From Deltaproteobacteria bacterium (GTDB taxonomy: Bacteria; Desulfobacterota; DSM-4660; Desulfatiglandales; HGW-15): a DNA stretch of 47,797 nucleotides. Shown piece by piece: positions 484 through 12,136 of this stretch. Below the pieces are notes generated by a model, which was not told where the DNA came from, did not search any database, and was given only the letters and a program-made list of their open reading frames with translations. The stretch covers positions 1-47,797 of the forward strand of contig JAFGDM010000081.1 of the NCBI GenBank assembly GCA_016932115.1, given 5' to 3'. Positions within the stretch are counted from its first letter, which is position 1. Each line of letters opens with the position of its first letter. The translations under genes were made by a program, and so were the position numbers.

Positions 484-861
484 ATGGGAAAATACCTGAT
501 AATCGTTAACAATGGCCCTGAAGATCCAAACAGAGCAACGGTACCTTTTCTTACCGCCAGGGCATTGGTAGAAAAAGGGCACGAGGTGGCTATTTGGCTT
601 TTTAACAACTCGGTCTATCTAGCATTCGAGGGCGTTGCAGAAAATGTTCAGGCTCCGGGCCTGCCTAATCTTGAGGACTTGATGCTTTTCCTTAGCATAA
701 CCAAGAAAATCCCCATTTTCATTGGAACGGCGTGCGCTATGGGACGGGGGCTGGTGAATGAAAATCACGAAGCCTCTGTCACTTTTTTTTGCGGTGAGCT
801 TGGTATGCCTTCCCAATTAGCCGATCTCATTGTAGAGGCTGACAATGTAATCGGCTTTTAG
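484..861 (+). CDS. DsrE/DsrF-like sulfur-relay family protein
   Basis: 125-aa ORF. The MGKYLIIVNNGPEDPNRATVPFLTARALVEKGHEV... start and the conserved-Cys segment IGTACAMGRG are typical of the DsrE fold. Called from motif memory. Confidence 0.65.
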   Translation: MGKYLIIVNNGPEDPNRATVPFLTARALVEKGHEVAIWLFNNSVYLAFEGVAENVQAPGLPNLEDLMLFLSITKKIPIFIGTACAMGRGLVNENHEASVTFFCGELGMPSQLADLIVEADNVIGF

Positions 862-1008
862 CTCTTTTCGGAAAAATAGTGTTTTGTCATTCTCAGCAGA
901 ATTTTGCCGGTTGACTTTGCCTTAAAAACAAGTTATGAGATCGCATATTATTGTTATAATAACTTTTTATCCACTGTTTCCGTCAGCTACAAGGAGTTGA
1001 AGGAGGAA

Positions 1009-2307
1009 ATGCCTATGGCAGATGAAGCGTTGGAGTTGAGCGAACTTAAAGGAGAATTCAGGAAGAAAGTCAATGAGCTTTTACCTGAGGGAAATCTGAA
1101 TCTCTGCTTCACCTGTGGTACCTGTGCCAGCGGTTGTCCGGCTACCGGACTCGAGAACATGGACCCAAGAAAATTTGTCAGGATGATAGCGCTGGGTCTT
1201 GATGATGAGGTAACGAGCACACCCTGGGTGTGGATGTGCAGCATGTGTCAGCGTTGTATCTATGCCTGCCCCATGAATGTTGATATCCCCCGGATGGTAT
1301 ACCTTGCTCGCCAGGCATGGCCGCGTGAGGAAAGGCCTAAAGGGATCCTCGGTTCATGCGATATGGCTCTCAGGAACGACAGTTGCAGCGCCATGGGAGC
1401 GTCGCCTGAGGATTTTCAGTTTGTTGTAGAAGACGTGGCGGAGGAAGTTAGAGAAAACCATCCCGGATTCGAGACGCTCCAGGCCCCGATAGACAAAGAG
1501 GGCGCTTATTTTTTTCTCAACCAGAATTCAAGAGAGCCGGTGACGGAGCCGGATGAAATGATCCCTCTGTGGAAGATTCTCCACCTTGCCGGAGCAGACT
1601 GGACCTATGGCTCCAAGGGGTGGGGCGGAGAAAACTACTGTATGTTTCTGGCTGATAGTGATGCCTGGGAACACATCGTTCGTACGAGCATAAAGCAGGC
1701 CGAAGATCTAGGGTGTAAGGTTTATCTCAATACCGAGTGAGGCCACGTGACCTTCGCAGTCCTGGAAGGACTGAAAAAATTTGGAATCAAGACCGACCTG
1801 GAAATTGCAAGCATTTATCAATACTATGCCAAATGGATCAGGGAGGGAAAATTAAAGGTTAATTCGGACTGGAACAAAGATCTAAAGATAAAATTCACGG
1901 TTCAGGATCCGTGTCAGATCGTCCGAAAAAGCTATGGTGACCCTGTAGCGGAAGATTTACGCTATGTTGTCAGATCCGTTGTCGGGGATGAAAATTTTAT
2001 TGATATGACACCTAACAGGTCCAACAATTATTGTTGTGGTGGTGGCGGTGGATATCTGCAATCCGGTTATGTTGAAGCACGTCATCAGTATGGGAAGGTC
2101 AAATTTGACCAGATCGTTGCTACAGGGGCCGATTATTGCGTTGCCGCATGCCATAACTGTCACGCCCAGATTCATGATCTGGCGGAGCATTTTGAAGGTA
2201 AATACCATACTGTCCACCTGTGGACTTTGATTTGCCTCGCCATGGGAGTTCTAGGTGAAAACGAGCGTACATATTTGGGTCCCGATCTGGCGGAGGTGGG
2301 GCTCTGA
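1009..2307 (+). CDS. HdrD/GlpC-like Fe-S oxidoreductase (ferredoxin domain plus two cysteine-rich CCG-type domains), read through in-frame UGA 1738-1740 as selenocysteine
   Basis: Track ORFs 904-1740 and 1747-2307 share one frame and are separated only by TGA-GGC-CAC. The N part has CFTCGTCASGCP and CSMCQRCIYACP. The C part has DPC...NNYCCGGGGGY. The likely start is ATG 1009 or 1015, after AGGAGG at 1001-1006. A hairpin begins 16 nt after the UGA. Confidence 0.75.
1757..1773 (+). promoter_or_regulatory. Putative bacterial SECIS hairpin for UGA 1738
   Basis: CAGTCC-TGGAA-GGACTG: 6-bp stem and 5-nt loop, starting 16 nt after the UGA. Confidence 0.55.
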
Positions 2308-2337: not shown

Positions 2338-2366
2338 ATCCCGCCCTGTTCAGGCGGGATTTTTTT
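2338..2366 (+). terminator. Rho-independent terminator, possibly bidirectional, between the convergent operons
   Basis: ATCCCGCC-CTGTTCA-GGCGGGAT followed by TTTTTT, with an A-run on the 5' side. Confidence 0.7.
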
Positions 2367-2471
2367 CGGCTACAGGTTCCCTGAGAAATAAAGGGTAAGA
2401 GCCATGTGAAAGCGACCCCCCGGGCCTGATGCCGGCGGTTTTTTCAAAAAGCTGAAACGTTACCCCGCTTT

Positions 2472-3314
2472 TTAATACTCCGGCGGCATCCGCTTGAGCT
2501 GAGCCAAGGAAAAAACCGGCCCATCTTTGCACACATACTGATCTCCAATGTTGCACCGTCCGCAAATGCCGATTCCGCACTTCATGCGCATTTCCAGGGA
2601 TAGAATGATTTTCTCCGCGGGGAACCCCAGTTTTTCCAGCACGGGCTGGGTAAACTTGATCATGATCGGCGGCCCGCACACAATGGCAAAGGCGTCATCC
2701 GCGCTCTTGATTTTTTGCTCTGTAACCGTGGGGACGAACCCTACGTTGTATTTCCAGTTTGGATCATCGGTGGCGTCCACGGTGATGTGCATGTTGATGT
2801 CGTCGCGCTGTTCCCATGCTGCGAGTTCATCCTTGTATAAAAGCATGCCGGGGTTCCGGGCTCCATACACAACGGTTATATCCTTGAATCGCGGCCGGTT
2901 GTCCGGGTGGATCATATAGACAATGCTGGAGCGCAGGGTGGTGAAGGCAAAACCGCCCCCTATAATCACCACGTTTTTCCCTTCCATCTCCTCCCAGGGA
3001 TACCAATTTCCCAAGGGGCCGCGAATGCCCATCACCTCTCCCTCTTTCATGTTGTGGAGATAATTAGTTACCTGACCGACCTTATTCACCGTGAAGGTGA
3101 CAACCCCCCCCTCCGTAGGGGAAGAAGCAATACCGATGGGGATCTCGCCTTTTCCGGCAATGGAAAGCTCCGCAAACTGGCCCGGAATATAGGAAAACTT
3201 TTTTTCATCTTCCGGATCCAGAAAAACGAACCTGAAGGTTTTCAAATTTCGGTCTTCAGTCTCCGTGGTAATCTGATCGATACGAACAGGATAAGGCAAA
3301 TAAGGGTTGTGCAT
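2472..3314 (-). CDS. FAD/NAD(P)H-binding oxidoreductase with C-terminal [2Fe-2S] (FlxA / sulfhydrogenase gamma / AsrB / PyrK-like)
   Basis: 280 aa. The start resembles a ferredoxin-reductase-type barrel. There is a GGGFAF nucleotide-binding stretch and a C-terminal MKCGIGICGRCNIG...CKDGP cysteine cluster. Confidence 0.75.
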   Translation of the reverse strand: MHNPYLPYPVRIDQITTETEDRNLKTFRFVFLDPEDEKKFSYIPGQFAELSIAGKGEIPIGIASSPTEGGVVTFTVNKVGQVTNYLHNMKEGEVMGIRGPLGNWYPWEEMEGKNVVIIGGGFAFTTLRSSIVYMIHPDNRPRFKDITVVYGARNPGMLLYKDELAAWEQRDDINMHITVDATDDPNWKYNVGFVPTVTEQKIKSADDAFAIVCGPPIMIKFTQPVLEKLGFPAEKIILSLEMRMKCGIGICGRCNIGDQYVCKDGPVFSLAQLKRMPPEY

Positions 3315-3401
3315 GAAGCTAATACTCCTTTTTCAGGTTGGACTCTTGGAGGGAATCTTTTTTAGCCATTGCTTCCTCCAATGCTCCGCTGTTCCTCTTC
3401 T

Positions 3402-4439
3402 TCAATACCCGTTCATCAATCCAAACACTTCTCGAATATCGATATTAACGGGGCAGAACTGAACACATCGGCCGCAACCGACACATGCCACGCCGTTTTC
3501 GTACTTGTCCACGTAATATTTCAGCTTGTGCATGAAACGTTGTCTGACCCTTTGGAGTTTTTTGTCTCGGGGATTGTGACCTGATCCGTGAAGGGTGAAA
3601 ATCGGAAACATGCATGCGTCCCAGTTGCGTATCCTGTCTCCTTCTTTGCCGCAGGTTTCATCCTGGATGTCGAAACACCAACAGGTCGGGCAGAGGTAGG
3701 TGCAGGTTCCACAGTTGATGCAGGCAAAGGAGATCCTTTCCCAGAAGTGGGCGCTGAATAACTCATTCACGACCTTGTCTTTAAGACGATCGGTGGGTAC
3801 AGTGGAGGAAATTTTTTTCTCCGAGCCTTTGGCCAGCTCCTGCGCCTGCTTGAGGACGGTGCCGTCCGCTTTCTTTCCGCTTTTGAGCGCTCCCAGAAGA
3901 GCTTCGCCTTTGGTCGTGAGGCTCTTTACCAGAAAACGATCGCCCAGATCCACCATGAGCGCATCCAGCCCTTTCTCGCAGAATGGGCCGCTTCCAACGG
4001 ATGTGCAAAAGCAGGACGCGCAAGGCTCGTTGCAGCCAAAGCCGACAATTGTGGTCGCATTCATTCGCTGAATCCACCAGGGATCACGGTATTGGGGGTT
4101 GTCGAAATTGATGCGAACCAACTGGAAGGCAAGGGCGTCGCAGGGCCGGATTCCCACAATGGCCTGCGTTGAGAAATCTTTGGGTGTTTCCTTGATGATG
4201 TGGGCGTCTTCTTTGCTATCATCCAAAGAGTATTCGAACATCCGCTCCGATTGAGGGAAAATTATGCTTTTCGCAGAGAGCCTTGTGTTCTGGAAGTCGA
4301 AACTCGGTTTGGCGCCGTTTTTCAGCGGCCTGAAATTGTGGAAGTCCCCTTCTTTTACGGGTACAAAAACCTTATAAGCGCTTTGCAGCTCTTTAAGTGC
4401 CTCGGTCCATTCTTCCTTGGTAAATGATTTCTCAAGCAT
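3402..4439 (-). CDS. 4Fe-4S dicluster protein, FlxB / sulfhydrogenase beta / AsrA-like
   Basis: 345 aa with CINCGTCTYLCPTCWCFD and CVGCGRCVQFCPVNIDI motifs. Confidence 0.7.
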   Translation of the reverse strand: MLEKSFTKEEWTEALKELQSAYKVFVPVKEGDFHNFRPLKNGAKPSFDFQNTRLSAKSIIFPQSERMFEYSLDDSKEDAHIIKETPKDFSTQAIVGIRPCDALAFQLVRINFDNPQYRDPWWIQRMNATTIVGFGCNEPCASCFCTSVGSGPFCEKGLDALMVDLGDRFLVKSLTTKGEALLGALKSGKKADGTVLKQAQELAKGSEKKISSTVPTDRLKDKVVNELFSAHFWERISFACINCGTCTYLCPTCWCFDIQDETCGKEGDRIRNWDACMFPIFTLHGSGHNPRDKKLQRVRQRFMHKLKYYVDKYENGVACVGCGRCVQFCPVNIDIREVFGLMNGY

Positions 4440-4551
4440 AGTGCTTATCCTAATGACTTTTTGAGGACGCTAAAAACGACACACGGTACAGCCTGCTCAA
4501 CGGAAGTAGTCTCTGTTTCTAAGACCGAGCGGCATAAGACAGAGCACCGTG

Positions 4552-5502
4552 TCATTTTACAAACTCATTGTAATCGTCCACCCGGTAAACATCGAGGGGC
4601 GGCCGCTGATCGGCACGAACGCCCGCTTCCCACCCGAAGTACTCGAAGACATCCTTGTTGAGTTTCTTGGTGAACTGCCTCATCGGTATACCGACCGGGC
4701 AAACCCTTTCACAGGCACCACAGTCGGTGCATCGTCCCGCGCAGTGGTATGCTCGCAGGAAGTGGAAGGTCATGGTATCCACAGGATCAATGCTTTTTCC
4801 TACCCATTGGGGACGGGATTCATCCACAAAACAGGTGGGGCAGTAACAAAGGGGACAGGCGTTCCTGCATGCATAGCAGCGGATGCAGGATGCAATGAGC
4901 TGAGTGAAAAATTGACGTTTTTCATCAGCACTCTTTTTTTCAATACCCTCCACGTCCTTGAAGGGGTTGACCCCTTCCAATTCCGGCACCGGATCGGCGA
5001 CCATCTCGTCGTATTCCACCGGGTTGCGATGGACGCATACGGCGCAATTGGTTCTCAGGAAATCCTTTTTTTGGAAAACTTCCTGGAAACCCTTTCCGCT
5101 CACTGTGAATGATTCGCCTTCTTCTCCCACTTCCAGAATTTCCCGATTTCCCACGGCCCTTTTCACGGCCCGATGATCAATGATACCCCTGCAGGGTATC
5201 CCGACGATATAGAGCTGTTCTCGCTTGATCTGGTTTTCAATGATATGGGTCACGATGTTGCGGGAGTTGCAGCCGTTCGCCACGAGGCCGATACGGTCGG
5301 TGCGCCCGGTCAGGTAGTTACAAAGATTCAGCCCGCAATGGCTGTCCCAATGCAGAAAGTCCACTTCGGCTGGATCCTTAATCAGCACAGGCTCATTCAT
5401 CATGGCCACAGTGCCTTTCCTGTACCCGATAAAAACATCCACCGTGCCTTTTTCCAAAAGCTTTCGAGCGATCTCTCTGATTTTCCGGGTATATTCAAAC
5501 AT
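4552..5502 (-). CDS. Fe-S protein, FlxC-like (paralog of the 41759-42886 product)
   Basis: 316 aa with CIRCYACRNACPLCYCPTCF and CTDCGACERVCPVGIPM. Its start ATG overlaps the mvhD stop (TAATG at 5500-5504). Confidence 0.6.
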   Translation of the reverse strand: MFEYTRKIREIARKLLEKGTVDVFIGYRKGTVAMMNEPVLIKDPAEVDFLHWDSHCGLNLCNYLTGRTDRIGLVANGCNSRNIVTHIIENQIKREQLYIVGIPCRGIIDHRAVKRAVGNREILEVGEEGESFTVSGKGFQEVFQKKDFLRTNCAVCVHRNPVEYDEMVADPVPELEGVNPFKDVEGIEKKSADEKRQFFTQLIASCIRCYACRNACPLCYCPTCFVDESRPQWVGKSIDPVDTMTFHFLRAYHCAGRCTDCGACERVCPVGIPMRQFTKKLNKDVFEYFGWEAGVRADQRPPLDVYRVDDYNEFVK

Positions 5503-5939
5503 TACGCCACCTCAGCTCTTTTCTTGACAAGATAGGCCGCAGGCCCGGCGTCTTTGACCGAATGGAAGATTTCTGTCGCCACCTCCACGAATTTGGTAGC
5601 TTCAGCGGAGGAAATCCAGGAAAAATGAAGCCTTCCCGGCTCCAGTCCGATATGTTCCAGAAGGTTTTTGAGGAGAGCGAACTTGCGTCTTGCGTAATAA
5701 TTACCTTCCAGGTAATGGCAGTCTCCGGGGTGTCACCCGGAAACCCACACCCCGTCGGCACCGTGCCGGAAAGCGGCCAGGATGAGTTTGGGGCTTACCC
5801 GGGCGGAGCAGGGCACGCGAATGACACGGATATTGGAAGGGTACTGCAAACGGCTGACTCCGGCCAGGTCCGCCGCTCCGTAACTGCACCAGTTGCAAAG
5901 GAATGCGGTAATTTTCGGCTGCCAATCGTTCATGGGCAT
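5502..5939 (-). CDS. mvhD: MvhD/FlxD-type [2Fe-2S] protein, selenocysteine form (UGA at 5735-5733)
   Basis: Track ORF 5733-5939 ends ...[12 protein letters not shown]. Hand translation continues in frame as [44 protein letters not shown]... to TAA at 5504-5502. The Cys paralog at 41309 reads [28 protein letters not shown], which places the UGA exactly on a conserved Cys. Confidence 0.85.
5700..5716 (-). promoter_or_regulatory. Putative bacterial SECIS hairpin for UGA 5735-5733
   Basis: Minus strand ATTACC-TGGAA-GGTAAT: 6-bp stem and 5-nt loop, starting 16 nt after the UGA. Confidence 0.55.
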
Positions 5940-6029
5940 TCACTCCGTTTTATCGATTTCCGGTTTTCTATCTTGGAACCTCTCTTTTCCTATGAGCTTC
6001 CGCCACGAGCCTTAGGCCTTGAGGCGTTT

Positions 6030-9000
6030 TCACATTTCATTGATCATCGCCATGATCTGTCCTTCCTCAAAGCCTTTGAGGTTGAGAGCCCCGGAGCGGC
6101 AAGAAGAGACGCAAAGTCCGCAGCCCTTGCAAAGGACGGGGTTGATTTCCGCCTTTCCCGCAAAAGGGCCTTTTGGAATAAAAGACGGAGCGGAGTAAGG
6201 GCAGATCTCCACGCACACGCCGCAGCTACTGCAGACCGCCGGATTGGCGTAAGCAACCATGCCGCTTACGGAGATGTTCTTTCTGGCCAAAAGGGTGACG
6301 GCCCTGGAAGCGGCGGCTTGGGCCTGCGCCACCGACTCGTCGATGGGTTTCGGGTAGTGAGCCATTCCGCAAAGAAAAACGCCGTCCGTGGCAAACTGTG
6401 AGGGGCCTAGCTTCGCATGGGCTTCCACAAAGAATCCGTCCTCGCTCATGGGCACTTTGAAGAATTGGGCCAGTTTTTCGTCCTTGTAGGGAACGATGGC
6501 CGAAGCCAGGGTGAGCAGATCCGCCATGACTATGACAGGGCGCTGCAGCACATGATCCATCACCTCAATCTCGATGCCTTCCTTGCCGACTGTAACCCTC
6601 GGCTTTTGAGCACGGGAGAAGCGGATGAAAATGACGCCCGCTTCTCGCGCAGCTCTGTATAGGAGTTCGCGCTCCCCATAGGTGCGGATGTCCCGATTGA
6701 GAATGTACACGTCCATACCCGGGTTGATTTCCTTGAGATGGAGGGCGCTACCTATGGAGTGGGTGCAGCAGACCCTCGAACAGTAAGGCCTTTCCGGCTC
6801 CCGGGATCCCACGCACTGGATGAATACGGCACACTTGATGCGTTTAAGGGATGAATCTTGATCGATAAACTTGCGGTCCAGTTCCTGGTGCGTGAGGATC
6901 CGGGGATCTTTGCCGTAGAGATATTCCTCGGGTTTGTGTTCGTAGCATCCGGTAGCCAGCACCGCAATTCCGTGTTCGAGGGTCCCCTTTGTACCGCCGG
7001 CTTTAAAGGTGGATTTGAAGTTGCCCACAAAGCCCTCAACCTGCGTTAGCTCGGCGCCAAGATGGGTCTCGATATTTTTGTCACCCTGCACCGATGTAAC
7101 AAGGGTTTTCAGGTTTTCCTGGATATCTTCTCCCTGCCAGGTCTTATACAGGTTGATCGCTTGGCCTCCGAGAACCGGTTCGCGTTCGATAAGATCCACC
7201 TGGTAGCCCTGGTCGCTCAAGGTTTTTGCCGCGGCCATGCCGGATATGCCGCCGCCGATGACCAGGGCTCGCTGGTTGACGTCCAAGGCCGCTTCGGGAA
7301 GGCCTTCCATGAGGGCGACCTTGGCCGTTGCCATGCGCACCAGGTCTTTGGCCTTGACGGTTGCTTTCGAGGGACTTTCCTTATGGACCCACGAATCCTG
7401 GTTGCGGATGTTGGTCATTTCAAATAGATATTTGTTCAGCCCGGCGGCGACAAGGGTTTCCTGGAAAAGAGGCTCATGGGTCTTGGGCGTGCAGGCGGCC
7501 ACCACGATCCGGTTGAGGTTGTTGGCCTTGATCACTTGAGTCATGGCGTCCTGGGTATCCTGGGAGCAGGAGTAAAGGTTGTCCGCCACGTATTCTACAT
7601 AGGGCAAAGTCTTGGCATAGTCACGCACAGCCGGAACATCCACCACACTGCCTATGTTGATTCCACAATGGCACACAAAAACCCCGATCCGGGGTCTTTC
7701 TCCACGGGTGTCCTTTTGTTCGATCACTTCTTTCGTTTTGGTGAGCGTGTTTCTTGCGCTGCTCAGAAGGGCACCGGCCCGGGCGGCCGCAGAGCTCGCT
7801 TCGATAACCGACTGAGGAATGTCCTTGGGACCCTGAAAAGCGCCGCACACGTATATGCCTTCCTTGGATGTGGCCACAGGCGCAAAAGAGCCGGTGCGGC
7901 AAAAATGGGATTCCGTAAGGTCGATGCCGAGCTTTCCTGCCAGCTCCATAACCTCGGGGGAGCTTTCCAACCCGACGGAAAGGACGACCATGTCAAAGGT
8001 TTCTTTGTGAAGCGCACCGTCTTCCGTCGCATACCGGACGCTCAAATCCTCGGTTCCCGGAACCCCCTCGACTGTGTGCACACGGCACCGGATGAACCGA
8101 ACTCCGTGTTTTTCCCTGGCTGCGTCATAGTACCTTTCAAACTCCTTTCCGTGGGTCCGCATGTCCATGTAGAAGATGGCGCACTCCAGATCGGCTCCGG
8201 AATGCTCCTTGGCGATCACCGCTTCTTTGATGGCGTACATGCAGCACACGGAAGAACAGTAAGGGTGATCGGAGGGATGGATCTCCCTGGATCCCACGCA
8301 CTGGAGCCAGGCGATCTTCTTGGGCTCCTTGTGGTCCGACATCCGCGCCAGGTGTCCCATGGTCGGACCGGAAGCCGAAAGAATCCTTTCGAACTCCATG
8401 GATGTTACGACATTTGGAAGCCGGGCATAGTTGTATGTGTCATGCTTCGAGGGGTCGAAAGGCTGGAACCCGGGGGCCAGGATGATAGCGCCTACCTCAA
8501 GTTCGATGATCTCGTCCTTCTGTGTGTAATCGATGGCGCCCACCCCGCAAAACTCCGCGCAGATTTTGCACCCTCCTGTCTTGAAATGCATGCATTTGCT
8601 CCGGTCGATGGCCGGGATATTCGGGATAGCCTGCGCATAAGGGACGTAAATGGGCTTTCGGCCCTTCAGTCCCATATCGTACTCGGAAGGAATTTTCTTT
8701 ACAGCGTGCTTGCTGATGTCTTCCAGTTTGATGTGGCCTGTGGGGCAAACGGAAGCGCAGGCCCCGCAGCCCATACAGTATTCCGTCTGGATATGAAAAG
8801 GGGTGTCCACCTTCATTTCCGTGCCGCGGCCCGTCAGGCTTATGGCCGCATTGCCCATTTTCTCGCAGATCCGAGTGCACAGCCCGCAAAGAATGCAGTC
8901 GTCCTGTTCTTTCTTGAACCTTGGCTCTACGATCCCGTACTTTTTTGCAAGGTTTTTGAGAAGAGGGACATCAGGGCAACGGGCGAAGAGCAGTTCAACA

Positions 9001-9263
9001 ATCAGCTTGCGGCCTTTGCGGACGGCCTCAGAGTCGGTTTTGACCTCCATTCCTTCCCAAATGGGGTAGTTGCAGGCTGTCACAAAACGGGTCCGCCGCC
9101 CGTCAAAAAGCTCGACGGTGCAAAGGCGGCACATCCCGGCAGGCTCCAGGGCCTTGTGATAGCAAAGGGTCGGGATGTCGATCCCGTATTTCTGCGCAAC
9201 CTGCAGGATGTATTGGCCTTCTTCTCCCTGGACGGTCTTCCCATTCATCTTGAACGTAATCAT
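6030..9263 (-). CDS. Fusion protein: NuoG/HndD-type N-terminus ([2Fe-2S] plus 4Fe-4S motifs), then the C-terminal part of one HdrA FAD module, an HdrA N-terminal-type Cys domain, a second complete HdrA FAD module and a 2x[4Fe-4S] ferredoxin domain
   Basis: The real start is most likely MITFKMNGKTVQ at 9263. The track start at 9521 overlaps the nuoF-like gene. Motifs present: CYH...CRLC, CILCGLCTRIC, CMGCGACASVCP, KKIPSEYDMGLKGRKPIY, CVGSREIHPSDHPYCSSVCC, RIGVFVCHCGINIG...VVAACTPKTHE, VIGGGISGMAAA, CVGSREPERPYCSRVCC, CSSCGVCVEICP and CKGCGLCVSSC. Confidence 0.8.
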   Translation of the reverse strand: MITFKMNGKTVQGEEGQYILQVAQKYGIDIPTLCYHKALEPAGMCRLCTVELFDGRRTRFVTACNYPIWEGMEVKTDSEAVRKGRKLIVELLFARCPDVPLLKNLAKKYGIVEPRFKKEQDDCILCGLCTRICEKMGNAAISLTGRGTEMKVDTPFHIQTEYCMGCGACASVCPTGHIKLEDISKHAVKKIPSEYDMGLKGRKPIYVPYAQAIPNIPAIDRSKCMHFKTGGCKICAEFCGVGAIDYTQKDEIIELEVGAIILAPGFQPFDPSKHDTYNYARLPNVVTSMEFERILSASGPTMGHLARMSDHKEPKKIAWLQCVGSREIHPSDHPYCSSVCCMYAIKEAVIAKEHSGADLECAIFYMDMRTHGKEFERYYDAAREKHGVRFIRCRVHTVEGVPGTEDLSVRYATEDGALHKETFDMVVLSVGLESSPEVMELAGKLGIDLTESHFCRTGSFAPVATSKEGIYVCGAFQGPKDIPQSVIEASSAAARAGALLSSARNTLTKTKEVIEQKDTRGERPRIGVFVCHCGINIGSVVDVPAVRDYAKTLPYVEYVADNLYSCSQDTQDAMTQVIKANNLNRIVVAACTPKTHEPLFQETLVAAGLNKYLFEMTNIRNQDSWVHKESPSKATVKAKDLVRMATAKVALMEGLPEAALDVNQRALVIGGGISGMAAAKTLSDQGYQVDLIEREPVLGGQAINLYKTWQGEDIQENLKTLVTSVQGDKNIETHLGAELTQVEGFVGNFKSTFKAGGTKGTLEHGIAVLATGCYEHKPEEYLYGKDPRILTHQELDRKFIDQDSSLKRIKCAVFIQCVGSREPERPYCSRVCCTHSIGSALHLKEINPGMDVYILNRDIRTYGERELLYRAAREAGVIFIRFSRAQKPRVTVGKEGIEIEVMDHVLQRPVIVMADLLTLASAIVPYKDEKLAQFFKVPMSEDGFFVEAHAKLGPSQFATDGVFLCGMAHYPKPIDESVAQAQAAASRAVTLLARKNISVSGMVAYANPAVCSSCGVCVEICPYSAPSFIPKGPFAGKAEINPVLCKGCGLCVSSCRSGALNLKGFEEGQIMAMINEM

Positions 9264-9285
9264 GGGGCAAATCCTTTTCTCTTCC

Positions 9286-11187
9286 CTACTTAACCACAAT
9301 GGCGTCAAACTTACAGGTGTCGTAGCAAATCCCGCACTTGATGCATTTTTCCTGGTCCAGTGTGTGAAGTTTTTTCTTCTCGCCGGTGATGGCTTGCTGT
9401 GGGCACTTGAGGGCGCACACGTGACACCCGGTGCAAGCTTTTTCATCCACCTCGTAATGAAACAGGGGTTTGCAAACGCCTGCAGGGCATTTCTTATCGT
9501 AAATGTGGGCCTCGTACTCATCTCGGAAGTAGAGAATCGTGGTAAGCACCGGATTTGGCGCTGAGGTGCCCAGCCCGCACAGGGAGAACTTCTGAATCAT
9601 GCTTCCCATTTCTTCAAGAAGCTCAATGTCTCCTTCCTTCCCCCGGCCTTCGCAAATGTCCGTGAGCACATCGAGCATCTGCTTGATTCCCTCTCTGCAG
9701 GGGGTGCACTGGCCGCACGATTCTCCTTTGAGAAAATCCAGAAAGTAGCGGGCCAAATCCACCATGCAGGTGCCCTGATCCATCACGATCATGCCGCCGG
9801 ATCCCATCATGGAACCCACCTTGGTGAGCTCATCGTAACCCACCTGGAGATCCAGGAAGGCCTCAGGGATGCACCCTCCCGAAGGGCCTCCTGTCTGGAC
9901 GGCCTTGAATTTACGTTTCTTGGGAATTCCTCCTCCCATCTCAAAGATGATCTCGCGCAAGGTGGTTCCCATCGGTACTTCGACCAAGCCTGTATTCTTC
10001 ACCTTGCCCACCAGGCTGAAAACCTTTGTTCCTTTGCTGTACTTCGTTCCCATGCTGCTGAACCAGTCGGCTCCCTTGAGCATGATGACGGGGACATTGG
10101 CATAGGTTTCCACATTGTTGAGGTTGGAGGGGCCGTCCCTGAAGCCCTTTTCCACGGTGTGGACATACTTGGCTCTGGGCCTTCCGACATTTCCCTCGAG
10201 GGAGGCCATGAGGGCCGTAGACTCGCCGCAAACAAAGGCGCCTGCGCCGGTCGAAATCTTGACGTGGAAACCGAAATCCGACCCGGCGATGTTGTCCCCG
10301 AGAAGTCCAAAATCCTCCGCTTGCTTCAGGGCCGACACAAGGCGTTTAACGGCCAGAGGATATTCGTTGCGCACGTAAATGAAACCCTGAGAGGACCCAA
10401 TCGCATAAGCCGCGATAAGCATTCCCTCCAAAACACTGTGAGGGTCGCCCTCCAGAACACTCCTGTCCATGTAGGCGCCGGGATCTCCCTCATCGGCGTT
10501 GCAGATGACATAGCGCTCTCCCGGGTGTTTGCGACAGCTCTCCCATTTGATGCCGGTGGGGAAACCTCCCCCGCCCCTTCCCCTCAGACCGGACTTCTTA
10601 ATGGTCGCAATGATCTCCTCATGTTTCATCTCAGCGAGGATGCGGACAAAAGCGAAATACCCGCCTCGCCCGATATACTCTTCTATGCTGTCAGGATCGA
10701 TGTAACCACAATTGCGCAAAGCGATTTTGATCTGATGAGCGTAAAAAGGGATTTCATCCAGGAAAGGGATTCCCTTGATGGGATTTACCTTTTCAAGCGG
10801 GTTAGGCCGATCCTCTTCAATGACGGATCTGGGGTCGCGCATCTGACCGAGAATCAATTTTTTGCTGAATGTTTCTTCCATGTAATCCTGGAATACATCC
10901 GGTAGTTTGTCCTCTGTCACACGTTTGTAGACGACCCTCGGTTTACCCTTGGCCAAAATCTCCACCAGGGGTTCTTCTTCACAAAAACCGATGCAGCCGG
11001 TCTGGCGGATTTCAATGGAATCACCGGCGGGATGCTCCTTCAGCGCCCTTTCAAGCGTTGCCCTGGCCCCTGCAGCGATCCCGCAAGAGGCCATGCCCAC
11101 GTTGACCTTGACGCCCTGCGGAAAGGAGAGCTTCTCGTTGAATTCTTCGCTGATCTTCTCCAGATCCTTTACAGATAAAATTCTCAT
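9286..11187 (-). CDS. NuoF/HndC/HydB-like NADH-binding FMN flavoprotein with an N-terminal thioredoxin-like domain and a C-terminal 2x[4Fe-4S]
   Basis: 633 aa with GRGGGGFPTG, ESCGQCTPCREG, CTGCHVCALKCP and CIKCGICYDTC. Confidence 0.85.
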   Translation of the reverse strand: MRILSVKDLEKISEEFNEKLSFPQGVKVNVGMASCGIAAGARATLERALKEHPAGDSIEIRQTGCIGFCEEEPLVEILAKGKPRVVYKRVTEDKLPDVFQDYMEETFSKKLILGQMRDPRSVIEEDRPNPLEKVNPIKGIPFLDEIPFYAHQIKIALRNCGYIDPDSIEEYIGRGGYFAFVRILAEMKHEEIIATIKKSGLRGRGGGGFPTGIKWESCRKHPGERYVICNADEGDPGAYMDRSVLEGDPHSVLEGMLIAAYAIGSSQGFIYVRNEYPLAVKRLVSALKQAEDFGLLGDNIAGSDFGFHVKISTGAGAFVCGESTALMASLEGNVGRPRAKYVHTVEKGFRDGPSNLNNVETYANVPVIMLKGADWFSSMGTKYSKGTKVFSLVGKVKNTGLVEVPMGTTLREIIFEMGGGIPKKRKFKAVQTGGPSGGCIPEAFLDLQVGYDELTKVGSMMGSGGMIVMDQGTCMVDLARYFLDFLKGESCGQCTPCREGIKQMLDVLTDICEGRGKEGDIELLEEMGSMIQKFSLCGLGTSAPNPVLTTILYFRDEYEAHIYDKKCPAGVCKPLFHYEVDEKACTGCHVCALKCPQQAITGEKKKLHTLDQEKCIKCGICYDTCKFDAIVVK

Positions 11188-11208
11188 TTTTCTGCCTCTT
11201 CCGGGCTT

Positions 11209-11706
11209 CTATTCGTAACGCTCCAAGGTTTTCGCCACTTGATCCGGGGACAGGCGGGCATGAACATCCTCATTGATCTTGACCACGGGCCCAAGACTGC
11301 AGCAGCCGATGCAGCGCACGGATTCAAGCGTAAAGGAACCGTCCTCAGTGGTTTGGCCGTTCGAGATGTGCAGGAGCTGCTCAATCTGTTCTTGGACTCG
11401 TTTGGCGCCCCTCACGTGGCAGGCCGTTCCGAGACAAACGGTAATGAGGTTTCGGCCTCTCGGTTCCAAGCTGAAGGTGGCGTAAAATGTGGCGATTCCA
11501 TAGATCCGGCTTAAGGGAACGCCGGTTTTTTCAGCGAGGTAGGCGAGGGCGGGTCTCGGAATGTAGTTATACCGGCCCTGAATCCCCTGAAGCATCATGA
11601 TTAGGTTTTCCTTGTCGCTGCCGTATGTTTCCTCGATGATTTTATCCATCTCGACATAATCCAGTTCCTCGGGAGAAGGGGCAATCGCAACGGGTTCCTT
11701 GTTCAT
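11209..11706 (-). CDS. NuoE/HndA-like thioredoxin-fold [2Fe-2S] protein
   Basis: 165 aa with CLGTACHVRGA ... CIGCCSLGPVV. Confidence 0.85.
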   Translation of the reverse strand: MNKEPVAIAPSPEELDYVEMDKIIEETYGSDKENLIMMLQGIQGRYNYIPRPALAYLAEKTGVPLSRIYGIATFYATFSLEPRGRNLITVCLGTACHVRGAKRVQEQIEQLLHISNGQTTEDGSFTLESVRCIGCCSLGPVVKINEDVHARLSPDQVAKTLERYE

Positions 11707-11719
11707 AAAGACATCCTCT

Positions 11720-12136
11720 TCACTGAGCCTCGCCGGATGATCCTGTGCGTTCTACCGCACCGGCCTCATACAAGACGGGACAGTTCTCAATGCAAACACC
11801 GCATCCGGTACAAAGATCCATATTGATGCTCCGGGCCCTTTTTCTTATCTTCACTTTAAAATGTCCAGGGCTTCCTTCGACAGACTCAAGATCCGAATAG
11901 GTAATGAGTTCAATATTGAGATGCCGGCCGACCTCGACCAGTTTAGGGGAAATGATTCACATCGCACAGTCATTGGTGGGAAAAGTTTTATCCAATTGGG
12001 CCATAACCCCGCCAATGGCCGGGGATTTTTCCAGGAGATACACGTAATATCCGGAATCCGCCAGATCAAGGGCGGATTGCATCCCTGCGATGCCTCCACC
12101 CACAACAAGGACTGAACCTTTTATAGTGTTTGACAT
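11720..12136 (-). CDS. hdrA: HdrA N-terminal fragment (FAD-binding GGGIAG, DCAM-U motif, first CxxCxxCxxxCP), with selenocysteine at UGA 11959-11957. Not present in the ORF track.
   Basis: Hand translation from ATG 12136 (RBS GGAGAAATAAGG) gives [126 protein letters not shown]...Q, ending at TGA 11722-11720. It aligns by eye to both HdrA paralogs in this window. Confidence 0.75.
11924..11941 (-). promoter_or_regulatory. Putative bacterial SECIS hairpin for UGA 11959-11957
   Basis: Minus strand CTGGTCG-AGGT-CGGCCGG: 7-bp stem (two G-U pairs) and an AGGU loop, starting 15 nt after the UGA. Confidence 0.5.

What the first reader, a model, noticed from the sequence alone, without database searches (positions are those of the whole stretch)
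1738..1773. In-frame UGA joins two track ORFs into one HdrD/GlpC-like selenoprotein
ORFs 904-1740 and 1747-2307 are in the same frame with only TGA-GGC-CAC between them (...KVYLNTE-U-GHVTFAVLEG...).

Neither half makes sense alone. The ferredoxin domain and the first Cys-rich half lie upstream. The second CCG domain (DPC...CCGGGGG) lies downstream and has no RBS or ATG of its own.

A 6-bp hairpin, CAGTCC-TGGAA-GGACTG, begins 16 nt after the UGA. GlpC/HdrD-like Fe-S oxidoreductases are an established selenoprotein family in deltaproteobacteria.
Basis: partly seen in the sequence, partly recalled or inferred. Interest (0 to 1): 0.65.

Follow-up and report, generated by a model that had tools for sequence, protein, structure and literature searches.

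The report
Selenocysteine codon in HdrD/DsrK-like gene
The apparent stop codon at 1738-1740 is almost certainly a selenocysteine codon inside one 430-residue iron-sulfur reductase gene, which puts selenium at the enzyme's probable catalytic cysteine position; this selenoprotein family has been catalogued since about 2004-2006, so the call is correct but ordinary.

Summary
TGA 1738-1740 lies in frame between the two track ORFs, and a hairpin at 1757-1773 starts 16 nt after it. Read through, the gene (1015-2307) gives a 430-aa protein with an HdrC-like ferredoxin domain and an HdrB-like fold that has one complete CCG motif.

- **Cys in homologs.** The UGA aligns with an invariant Cys (NTE-C-GH) in every Cys-type homolog examined.
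- **Conservation.** The same codon is TGA in 93 distinct orthologs from Desulfobacterales-type genomes.
- **Hairpin.** All 93 carry the hairpin at +20..+36. G is at +27 in 93/93, and pair 26-30 switches between U-A and G-C even though this changes amino acids. Thirteen Cys orthologs lack it.
- **Machinery.** The genome encodes tRNA-Sec, SelA, SelB and SelD.

The family is the catalogued "Fe-S oxidoreductase (GlpC)-like" selenoprotein, Sec motif UGH. It is not true GlpC, DsrK, HmcF or TmcB.

Public annotations split these genes into fragments. This scan has already reported the same family in at least 24 other genomes. Verdict: real, a new member of a known kind, low novelty.

The parts
1015..2307 (+). 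Complete gene for a 430-residue Sec-containing HdrD/DsrK-like Fe-S protein (ATG 1015, internal UGA 1738-1740, true stop TGA 2305-2307)
   Evidence: Translation with TGA=U. 2822 homologs at E<1e-10; the 120 best are listed, nearly all 419-460 aa. N-termini align at M1015.
1000..1006 (+). Shine-Dalgarno AAGGAGG, 8 nt before ATG 1015
   Evidence: Read directly from the sequence.
1096..1281 (+). HdrC-like 2x[4Fe-4S] ferredoxin domain (residues 28-89; Cys 31, 34, 37, 41 and 75, 78, 81, 85)
   Evidence: Pfam Fer4_8 1.6e-9. PDB HdrC chains 8rvv_C and 5odc_C at 1e-15 to 4e-12. These Cys are invariant.
1738..1740 (+). UGA = selenocysteine 242 in the motif L-N-T-E-U-G-H
   Evidence: Aligns with an invariant Cys. 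The same codon is TGA in 30/30 and 79/80 related loci.
1757..1773 (+). Bacterial SECIS hairpin: stem 1757-1763 / 1767-1773, loop GGA 1764-1766 (G at +27 and +28)
   Evidence: Folding. 95.6% of cells paired and compensatory pair 26-30. 93/93 Sec orthologs against 13 Cys orthologs. Genome background about 2e-4. Same geometry at the window's two other Sec codons.
1897..2172 (+). Complete CCG motif (residues 295-386; Cys 300, 340, 341, 379, 382), predicted to bind one non-cubane [4Fe-4S] cluster
   Evidence: Pfam CCG 4.4e-11. HdrB 5odc_B residues 132-270 by sequence profile. Whole HdrB fold by Foldseek, TM 0.62.
2345..2367 (+). Intrinsic-terminator-like hairpin plus T-run, 38 nt after the true stop
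   Evidence: Consensus scan and the sequence itself.
484..861 (+). Upstream DsrE/DsrF-like gene (context only; the adjacency is not conserved in orthologs)
   Evidence: Pfam DsrE 3e-10. Absent from the flanks of 29 orthologous loci.

Best explanation
One gene (1015-2307) encodes a 430-residue soluble iron-sulfur oxidoreductase of the HdrD/DsrK type, and its codon 242 (UGA) is decoded as selenocysteine.

Decoding. The mRNA hairpin at +20..+36 after the UGA, with GG in its apical loop, acts as a bacterial SECIS. It recruits SelB-GTP-Sec-tRNA(Sec) to the ribosome paused at the UGA, so translation continues into the CCG domain.

The protein. It carries two ferredoxin-type [4Fe-4S] clusters (HdrC-like) and an HdrB-like fold. 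Only the C-terminal CCG motif of that fold is intact, so it should bind one non-cubane [4Fe-4S] cluster.

The role of Sec (inferred). Sec242 sits in the T/GE-C-GH motif. This is the only surviving residue of the lost second cluster site and is equivalent to DsrK Cys329. It is inferred to be the non-ligating catalytic nucleophile that attacks a disulfide, persulfide or trisulfide substrate. The resulting Se-S adduct would be reduced by the adjacent non-cubane cluster, with His244 as proton relay.

Shown here: the in-frame UGA, the Cys alignment, the conserved SECIS, the Sec machinery, the domain architecture, and the alignment to DsrK's GECGH. Inferred: actual selenium insertion, the catalytic role, and the substrate and electron donor, both of which are unknown.
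For: - UGA in frame, and the fused protein is full length relative to the 120 best-scoring listed homologs, which are 66-78% identical and nearly all 419-460 aa.
- Invariant Cys at the aligned column.
- In the same order, 47 near-full-length orthologs have exactly one TGA and 13 have none. The TGA is at the identical codon in 30/30 fetched loci and in 79/80 species-representative loci, including Desulfonema magnum and D. limicola.
- Hairpin: 6.86 of 7 pairs on average in 93 Sec orthologs against 3.08 of 7 in 13 Cys orthologs. G27 is present in 93/93. Pair 26-30 is U-A in 44, G-C in 43 and G.U in 6, and the switch changes Leu-Glu to Arg-Ala/Val.
- The same hairpin geometry follows the window's mvhD and hdrA-N Sec codons.
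- tRNA-Sec 74.9 bits, SelB, SelA, and SelD with its own TGA.
- No conserved start for a downstream gene.
- The HdrB fold spans the UGA.
- The Sec/Cys state needs only 5 changes on a 166-protein tree, so it is stably inherited.
- U242 aligns with the Cys of GECGH in this genome's own DsrK, which scores 738 bits against a cut-off of 400. That Cys is described as strictly conserved, non-ligating and persulfidated.
- Literature: Sec motif UGH for this family.
Against: - There is no direct evidence of selenium incorporation or of a read-through peptide.
- The single-sequence fold is not exceptional (z = -1.36).
- Rfam has no matching SECIS model.
- Covariation rests mainly on one or two base pairs, and the hairpin is also coding sequence.
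- The catalytic role is transferred from DsrK, which is only 26% identical, and rests partly on a preprint.
- Gene neighbours are not conserved, so the substrate and partner remain unknown.
Confidence: 0.93

Rival explanations
1. The TGA is a genuine stop. Two separate genes encode a 241-aa ferredoxin-like protein and a 186-aa CCG protein that assemble like HdrC and HdrB.
For: Methanogen Hdr is split into HdrC and HdrB. A GTG with a weak GAGG lies 6 nt after the stop. Databases hold 493 clustered C-terminal fragments annotated as separate proteins.
Against: The break is not at the HdrC/HdrB boundary. It lies inside the HdrB-like fold, at an invariant Cys. The GTG is present in only 18 of 93 orthologs, and the first possible start varies from 3 to 89 codons downstream. 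The fragment lengths of 136-186 aa reflect gene-caller guesses. A SECIS hairpin is maintained at the cost of amino-acid changes.
Confidence: 0.02
2. The gene is a pseudogene, or the TGA is an assembly or sequencing error for TGC/TGT.
For: This is a draft genome of 323 contigs. One degraded paralog with multiple stops exists in a relative (G164:C3).
Against: The same single TGA occurs at the same codon in 93 distinct orthologs from independent assemblies, and no other stops or frameshifts were seen. The flanking sequence is under strong purifying selection, with identity up to 93%.
Confidence: 0.01
3. The UGA is recoded, but the outcome is conditional. Under selenium limitation the ribosome terminates to give a 241-aa product, or inserts Cys or Trp. 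The locus would then act partly as a selenium-dependent switch and not as a constitutive selenoprotein gene.
For: Termination competes with Sec insertion in bacteria generally (established knowledge). Several related genomes keep both Sec and Cys paralogs, for example G163, G140, G126 and D. magnum, as D. autotrophicum does for its Hdr groups.
Against: No Cys paralog of this orthologous group was found in the window's own genome at E<=1e-100 (one match in G000). Nothing in the sequence suggests a function for the truncated product.
Confidence: 0.04

Closest known systems
'Fe-S oxidoreductase (GlpC)-like' bacterial selenoprotein family, Sec motif UGH (Zhang et al. 2006, PMC1794560; review PMC13188914, which credits its reference 12)
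   Same: In-frame UGA at a Cys position followed by G-H. Ferredoxin plus CCG architecture. Found in Deltaproteobacteria / Thermodesulfobacteriota. Lies close to Sec-HdrA and Sec-MvhD genes; here these sit in the convergent operon at 2472-12136.
   Different: [quoted passage not shown] Here it is on the opposite strand, probably monocistronic or paired with a DsrE-like gene. I could not fetch the family's reference sequence, so orthology to the originally described members is not shown.
DsrK of DsrMKJOP (A. fulgidus; PNAS 2024, PMC10861901; cryo-EM preprint 10.64898/2026.08.25.746951)
   Same: HdrC-like domain plus an HdrB-like fold with a single complete CCG motif. The conserved E-C-G-H motif aligns exactly with E-U-G-H. 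The His two residues after it is also conserved.
   Different: Only 26% identity, and 117 bits against the model's cut-off of 400. DsrK replaces the last CCG Cys by Asp, whereas this protein keeps it (CHNC). There is no DsrM-type membrane partner next to it. DsrK carries Cys, not Sec.
HmcF and TmcB (HdrD-like subunits of the Hmc and Tmc complexes of sulfate reducers)
   Same: These are the best-scoring NCBIfam models (181 and 158 bits). They have one CCG motif and the T/GECGH motif.
   Different: The scores are far below the equivalog cut-offs of 750 and 735. No hmc or tmc partner genes are in the window. A class III cytochrome c gene lies upstream only in one ortholog lineage.
HdrD4 of Desulfobacterium autotrophicum HRM2 (Strittmatter et al. 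2009, PMC2702500)
   Same: A soluble HdrD-type protein (HdrC plus HdrB domains, no transmembrane part) annotated as a selenoprotein in a member of the Desulfobacteraceae.
   Different: Orthology was not tested here because the sequence was not fetched.
Methanogen HdrB/HdrC and HdrD; mycobacterial EtfD (PDB 5odc, 8rvu, 9ojn)
   Same: Same folds: Foldseek 9ojn E = 5e-8, and 5odc_B with TM 0.62 over all 291 residues.
   Different: HdrB and HdrD have two complete CCG motifs and two non-cubane clusters. EtfD is membrane-bound. None of them carries Sec at this site.

Membership tests
Fe-S oxidoreductase (GlpC)-like selenoprotein family (Sec motif UGH) | In-frame UGA that aligns with Cys in Cys-containing homologs | tested here: met
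   Cys is invariant at column U242 in 19/19 homologs and in 13/13 genomic Cys orthologs.
Fe-S oxidoreductase (GlpC)-like selenoprotein family (Sec motif UGH) | Sec motif U-G-H | tested here: met
   The motif reads NTE-U-GH. The motif as listed in the review table was read.
Fe-S oxidoreductase (GlpC)-like selenoprotein family (Sec motif UGH) | [quoted passage not shown] | tested here: met
   Stem at +20..+36. G27 is present in 93/93 orthologs, a compensatory pair is seen, and the hairpin is absent from Cys orthologs.
Fe-S oxidoreductase (GlpC)-like selenoprotein family (Sec motif UGH) | Host genome encodes selA, selB, selC and selD | tested here: met
Fe-S oxidoreductase (GlpC)-like selenoprotein family (Sec motif UGH) | Selenium actually incorporated into the protein | not testable with these tools
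   This needs 75Se labelling or mass spectrometry.
Fe-S oxidoreductase (GlpC)-like selenoprotein family (Sec motif UGH) | Match to the family's PANTHER model or reference sequence named in the review | not tested
   Neither the PANTHER library nor the reference sequence was available.
Single-CCG HdrD/DsrK-type proteins (T/GECGH group) | Two ferredoxin-type CxxCxxCxxxCP motifs at the N-terminus | tested here: met
   C31, C34, C37, C41 and C75, C78, C81, C85 are invariant.
Single-CCG HdrD/DsrK-type proteins (T/GECGH group) | Exactly one complete CXnCCGXnCXXC motif, with the other module degenerate | tested here: met
   C300, C340, C341, C379 and C382 are present. In the N-terminal module only position 242 is kept as a motif residue. 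Pfam finds a single CCG hit.
Single-CCG HdrD/DsrK-type proteins (T/GECGH group) | Conserved T/G-E-C-G-H motif | tested here: met
   T-E-U-G-H aligns with the GECGH of this genome's own DsrK and with the TECGH of a paralog. The motif definition comes from PMC10861901.
DsrK (NF045796 equivalog) | Score above the curated cut-off of 400 bits | tested here: not met
   117 bits. The true DsrK of this genome lies on contig C88 and scores 738 bits.
HmcF (NF045711) and TmcB (NF045724) | Score above the curated cut-offs of 750 and 735 bits | tested here: not met
   181 and 158 bits.
GlpC, anaerobic glycerol-3-phosphate dehydrogenase subunit C (TIGR03379, NF008369) | Score above the curated cut-offs of 279.9 and 278 bits | tested here: not met
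   31 and 43 bits. 'GlpC' is a historical label only.
Methanogen-type HdrD | Two complete CCG motifs (two non-cubane clusters) | tested here: not met
   There is only one complete motif. hhalign finds no significant similarity between the N- and C-terminal modules.

The most novel reading that the evidence does not exclude
The natural Cys-to-Sec replacement sits exactly at the DsrK-Cys329-equivalent position, in a clade of at least 93 species-level genomes. This would be independent evolutionary evidence that the residue is a redox-active nucleophile and not a cluster ligand. It would mean single-cluster HdrD/DsrK-type enzymes work by a 'one non-cubane cluster plus one chalcogenol' mechanism. 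The two DsrK papers I read do not mention selenocysteine. The coexisting Sec and Cys paralogs would offer a ready-made natural experiment for that mechanism.
Probability: 0.55. Interest if true: 0.35.

Novelty: new member of a known kind. Interest (0 to 1): 0.2.

Why it matters
The main value is as an annotation fix. Gene callers split this gene, and at least 493 clustered relatives of its C-terminal half, into fragments. As a result the nearest full-length relatives visible in protein databases are only 78% identical Cys forms, while 93% identical Sec orthologs exist in genomes.

Biologically, it adds a third selenoprotein to this window's Hdr/Mvh/Flx-type redox locus. It also places selenium at the position that recent DsrK work identifies as the sulfur-relay cysteine, which is useful for anyone testing how single non-cubane-cluster reductases work. 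It does not open a new question.

Tried and rejected
- **Internal duplication.** hhalign of the N-terminal degenerate module (residues 150-262) against the C-terminal CCG module (280-402) gave no significant match (probability 0.2%). The mapping of U242 therefore rests on the alignment with DsrK and on the literature, not on internal duplication.
- **Rfam.** A scan of 1650-1900 at E<=10 found no SECIS family. No Rfam family at all matched the hairpin.
- **Conserved operon partner.** The DsrE-like and FlxA-like neighbours occur only in this window. Other lineages have a divergent acyl-CoA-dehydrogenase-like ORF (identified from the sequence only, not profile-tested), a PocR-domain protein, or a class III cytochrome c. 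No partner could be inferred.
- **Genome-wide scan for the same hairpin geometry after TGA.** It recovered this site and two MvhD sites. The other candidate with long flanking frames (C111, position 7850) is an Arg-rich off-frame translation and was rejected.

Full report
**Observation.** The window has TGA at 1738-1740, in the same frame as the track ORFs 904-1740 and 1747-2307; only GGC CAC lies between the TGA and the second ORF's GTG. Reading TGA as U gives one uninterrupted frame that ends at a second TGA at 2305-2307. CAGUCC(U)-GGA-(A)GGACUG occupies 1757-1773, which is +20..+36 with U of UGA as +1, and 16 nt separate the UGA from the stem. The most likely start is ATG 1015, 8 nt after AAGGAGG, because homolog N-termini align there. 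The protein is then 430 residues with Sec at position 242, in L-N-T-E-U-G-H.

**What the protein is.** Pfam finds a 4Fe-4S dicluster domain (residues 28-89) and one CCG domain (residues 295-386). Against NCBIfam the best models are HmcF (181 bits), TmcB (158) and DsrK (117). All are far below their equivalog cut-offs of 750, 735 and 400. True GlpC models score only 31-43 bits against cut-offs of about 280. A profile search of PDB sequences matches HdrC with the N-terminal part and HdrB residues 132-270 with residues 280-413. An AlphaFold2 model (pLDDT 77, pTM 0.78) matches mycobacterial EtfD (9ojn, E = 5e-8). It also matches the whole of HdrB (5odc_B, 290 aligned columns of 291 residues, TM 0.62). 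The HdrB-like fold therefore spans roughly residues 150-430 and the UGA lies in the middle of it, so neither half is a complete domain set.

**Cys at the aligned position.** A search of the 5.8-billion-protein collection returned 2822 homologs at E<1e-10. The 120 best are listed. Nearly all are 419-460 aa long and they are 66-78% identical. In an alignment of 19 of them, the column of U242 is an invariant Cys within an invariant N-T-E-C-G-H.

**Conservation of the TGA.**
- A six-frame search of 209 genomes of the same order found 47 near-full-length orthologs with exactly one in-frame TGA and 13 with none.
- In all 30 fetched loci the TGA is at the same codon, LNTE*GH.
- A scan of species-representative genome contigs gave 79 of 80 best loci with TGA there. 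They come from Desulfobacteraceae / Desulfobacterales / Thermodesulfobacteriota assemblies, including Desulfonema magnum 4be13, D. limicola and an Olavius Delta-1 symbiont.
- On a 166-protein tree the Sec/Cys state needs only 5 changes, against a shuffled mean of about 54, so the state is stably inherited.

This rules out a sequencing error or a pseudogene.

**The SECIS element.**
- Among 93 distinct TGA orthologs the 7-bp template at +20..+26 / +30..+36 is formed with a mean of 6.86 of 7 pairs. G is at +27 in 93/93 and G or U at +28 in 93/93. The mean local folding energy is -11.1 kcal/mol.
- The 13 Cys orthologs average 3.08 of 7 pairs and -4.7 kcal/mol.
- Pair 26-30 is U-A in 44 sequences, G-C in 43 and G.U in 6. 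This switch turns Leu-Glu into Arg-Ala or Arg-Val, so base pairing is kept at the expense of the protein sequence.
- On the 30-sequence alignment, 95.6% of cells pair, against 10-47% when the 3' partners are slid by 1-3 columns.
- Within this genome only 27 of 139,969 TGA triplets show a perfect stem of this geometry with G27 and G/U28. Those flanked by long frames on both sides include this site and two MvhD sites.
- The window's two other Sec codons, mvhD at 5735-5733 and hdrA-N at 11959-11957 (both on the minus strand), have 7-bp hairpins at +19/+20..+36 with GG at +27/+28.
- Caveats: the single-sequence fold is unremarkable (z = -1.36) and Rfam offers no matching model.

**Machinery.** The genome (3.73 Mb, 323 contigs) has tRNA-Sec (74.9 bits, above the cut-off), SelB, SelA and SelD; SelD itself contains one TGA.

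**The two-gene alternative.** The GTG at 1747 is present in only 18 of 93 orthologs. Otherwise the first in-frame ATG, GTG or TTG lies 4-89 codons downstream. The C-terminal half exists in public collections as a cluster of 493 fragments. The listed members are 136-186 aa long and are named 'Fe-S oxidoreductase' or 'Cysteine-rich domain-containing protein'; one example is Desulfonema magnum QTA87332.1 at 173 aa. These variable lengths are what gene callers produce after an unrecognised Sec codon.

**Comparison with what is known.**
- Zhang et al. 2006 list 'Fe-S oxidoreductase (GlpC)' among 25 bacterial selenoprotein families. It occurs in Deltaproteobacteria and is often clustered with Sec-HdrA and Sec-FrhD/MvhD genes.
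- A 2026 review gives the family's Sec motif as 'UGH', which is exactly the motif here.
- The D. autotrophicum HRM2 genome paper annotated a Sec-containing HdrD4.
- This scan has already reported the same kind of site in at least 24 other genomes with the same conclusion.

The finding is therefore a new member of a known kind.

**Mechanism.** Barbosa et al. (PNAS 2024) note two things about DsrK, HmcF and TmcB. They have only one CCG motif, and they keep one Cys of the lost second motif within a T/GECGH sequence (A. fulgidus DsrK Cys329). A 2026 cryo-EM preprint reports the following:
- Cys329 does not ligate the cluster and carries a persulfide.
- Cys329 lies between the DsrC Cys114 and the cluster.
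- His331 is the probable proton relay.

I aligned the window's protein with this genome's own DsrK (contig C88, 738 bits against a cut-off of 400) and with a TECGH paralog. E241-U242-G243-H244 align exactly with E-C-G-H. The protein keeps the last CCG Cys (CHNC), where DsrK has Asp. I therefore infer that Sec242 is the catalytic nucleophile and sulfur relay beside the single non-cubane cluster. Neither DsrK paper mentions selenocysteine. The substrate and the electron donor remain unknown.

**Context.** The upstream gene (484-861) is DsrE/DsrF-like. A terminator-like hairpin follows the gene at 2345-2367, and a promoter-like site lies at 922-951. The DsrE-like neighbour is not found next to any of 29 orthologs, and other lineages have other neighbours, so context does not fix the function. 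The convergent operon at 2472-12136 carries the Sec-MvhD and Sec-HdrA genes, which echoes the published co-localisation of these selenoprotein families.

**Verdict.** Confidence that UGA242 encodes Sec in a single 430-aa protein is 0.93. Novelty is low.

Noticed in passing
window 5733-5735 (minus strand); also G000 contig C186 position 6026: The mvhD-like gene has an in-frame TGA (…[20 protein letters not shown]…) followed by a 7-bp hairpin AUUACCU-GGA-AGGUAAU at +20..+36, the same geometry as the HdrD-like site. A second copy with the same 21-residue peptide around the TGA lies on contig C186.
   Followed up: partly
window 11957-11959 (minus strand): An HdrA N-terminal module has an in-frame TGA in …NDCAM-U-IISPK…, followed by a 7-bp hairpin at +19..+36 with loop AGGU.
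   Followed up: partly
G000 contig C48:10111-11037: The genome's SelD (371 bits) itself contains one in-frame TGA, so it is probably a Sec-containing SelD.
   Followed up: no
table; loci L014-L017: The closest orthologs (85-93% identity) come from a different taxonomic family (f4) than the window's own family (f1, 72-79% identity). A same-genus genome holds only an 89% identical fragment. Possible explanations are horizontal transfer, paralog sorting, or mis-binning.
   Followed up: no
L046 (G198:C36:7236-8522): One Cys ortholog (…NTECGHSTYSVWQGQRRF…) has an 8-bp hairpin CUCUGUCU-GGCAG-GGGCAGAG at about the same distance from the Cys codon (-11.8 kcal/mol). It may be a fossil SECIS left after a Sec-to-Cys conversion.
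   Followed up: no
G163 (7.2 Mb genome of the same family): One genome carries four TGA-containing paralogs of this gene plus one Cys paralog. Several other genomes (G140, G126, G198, G161, G111, and D. magnum) hold both Sec and Cys versions.
   Followed up: no
L035-L042, about 200-800 nt upstream of the ortholog: In one ortholog lineage a class III (c3-type) cytochrome c gene lies directly upstream on the same strand, which recalls tmcA-tmcB. That lineage may be part of a Tmc-like membrane complex.
   Followed up: partly
window 922-951 and 833-860: A promoter-like site (TTAAAA-18-TATTAT) and a weak terminator-like hairpin lie between the DsrE-like gene and the HdrD-like gene. The selenoprotein gene may therefore be transcribed on its own.
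   Followed up: no
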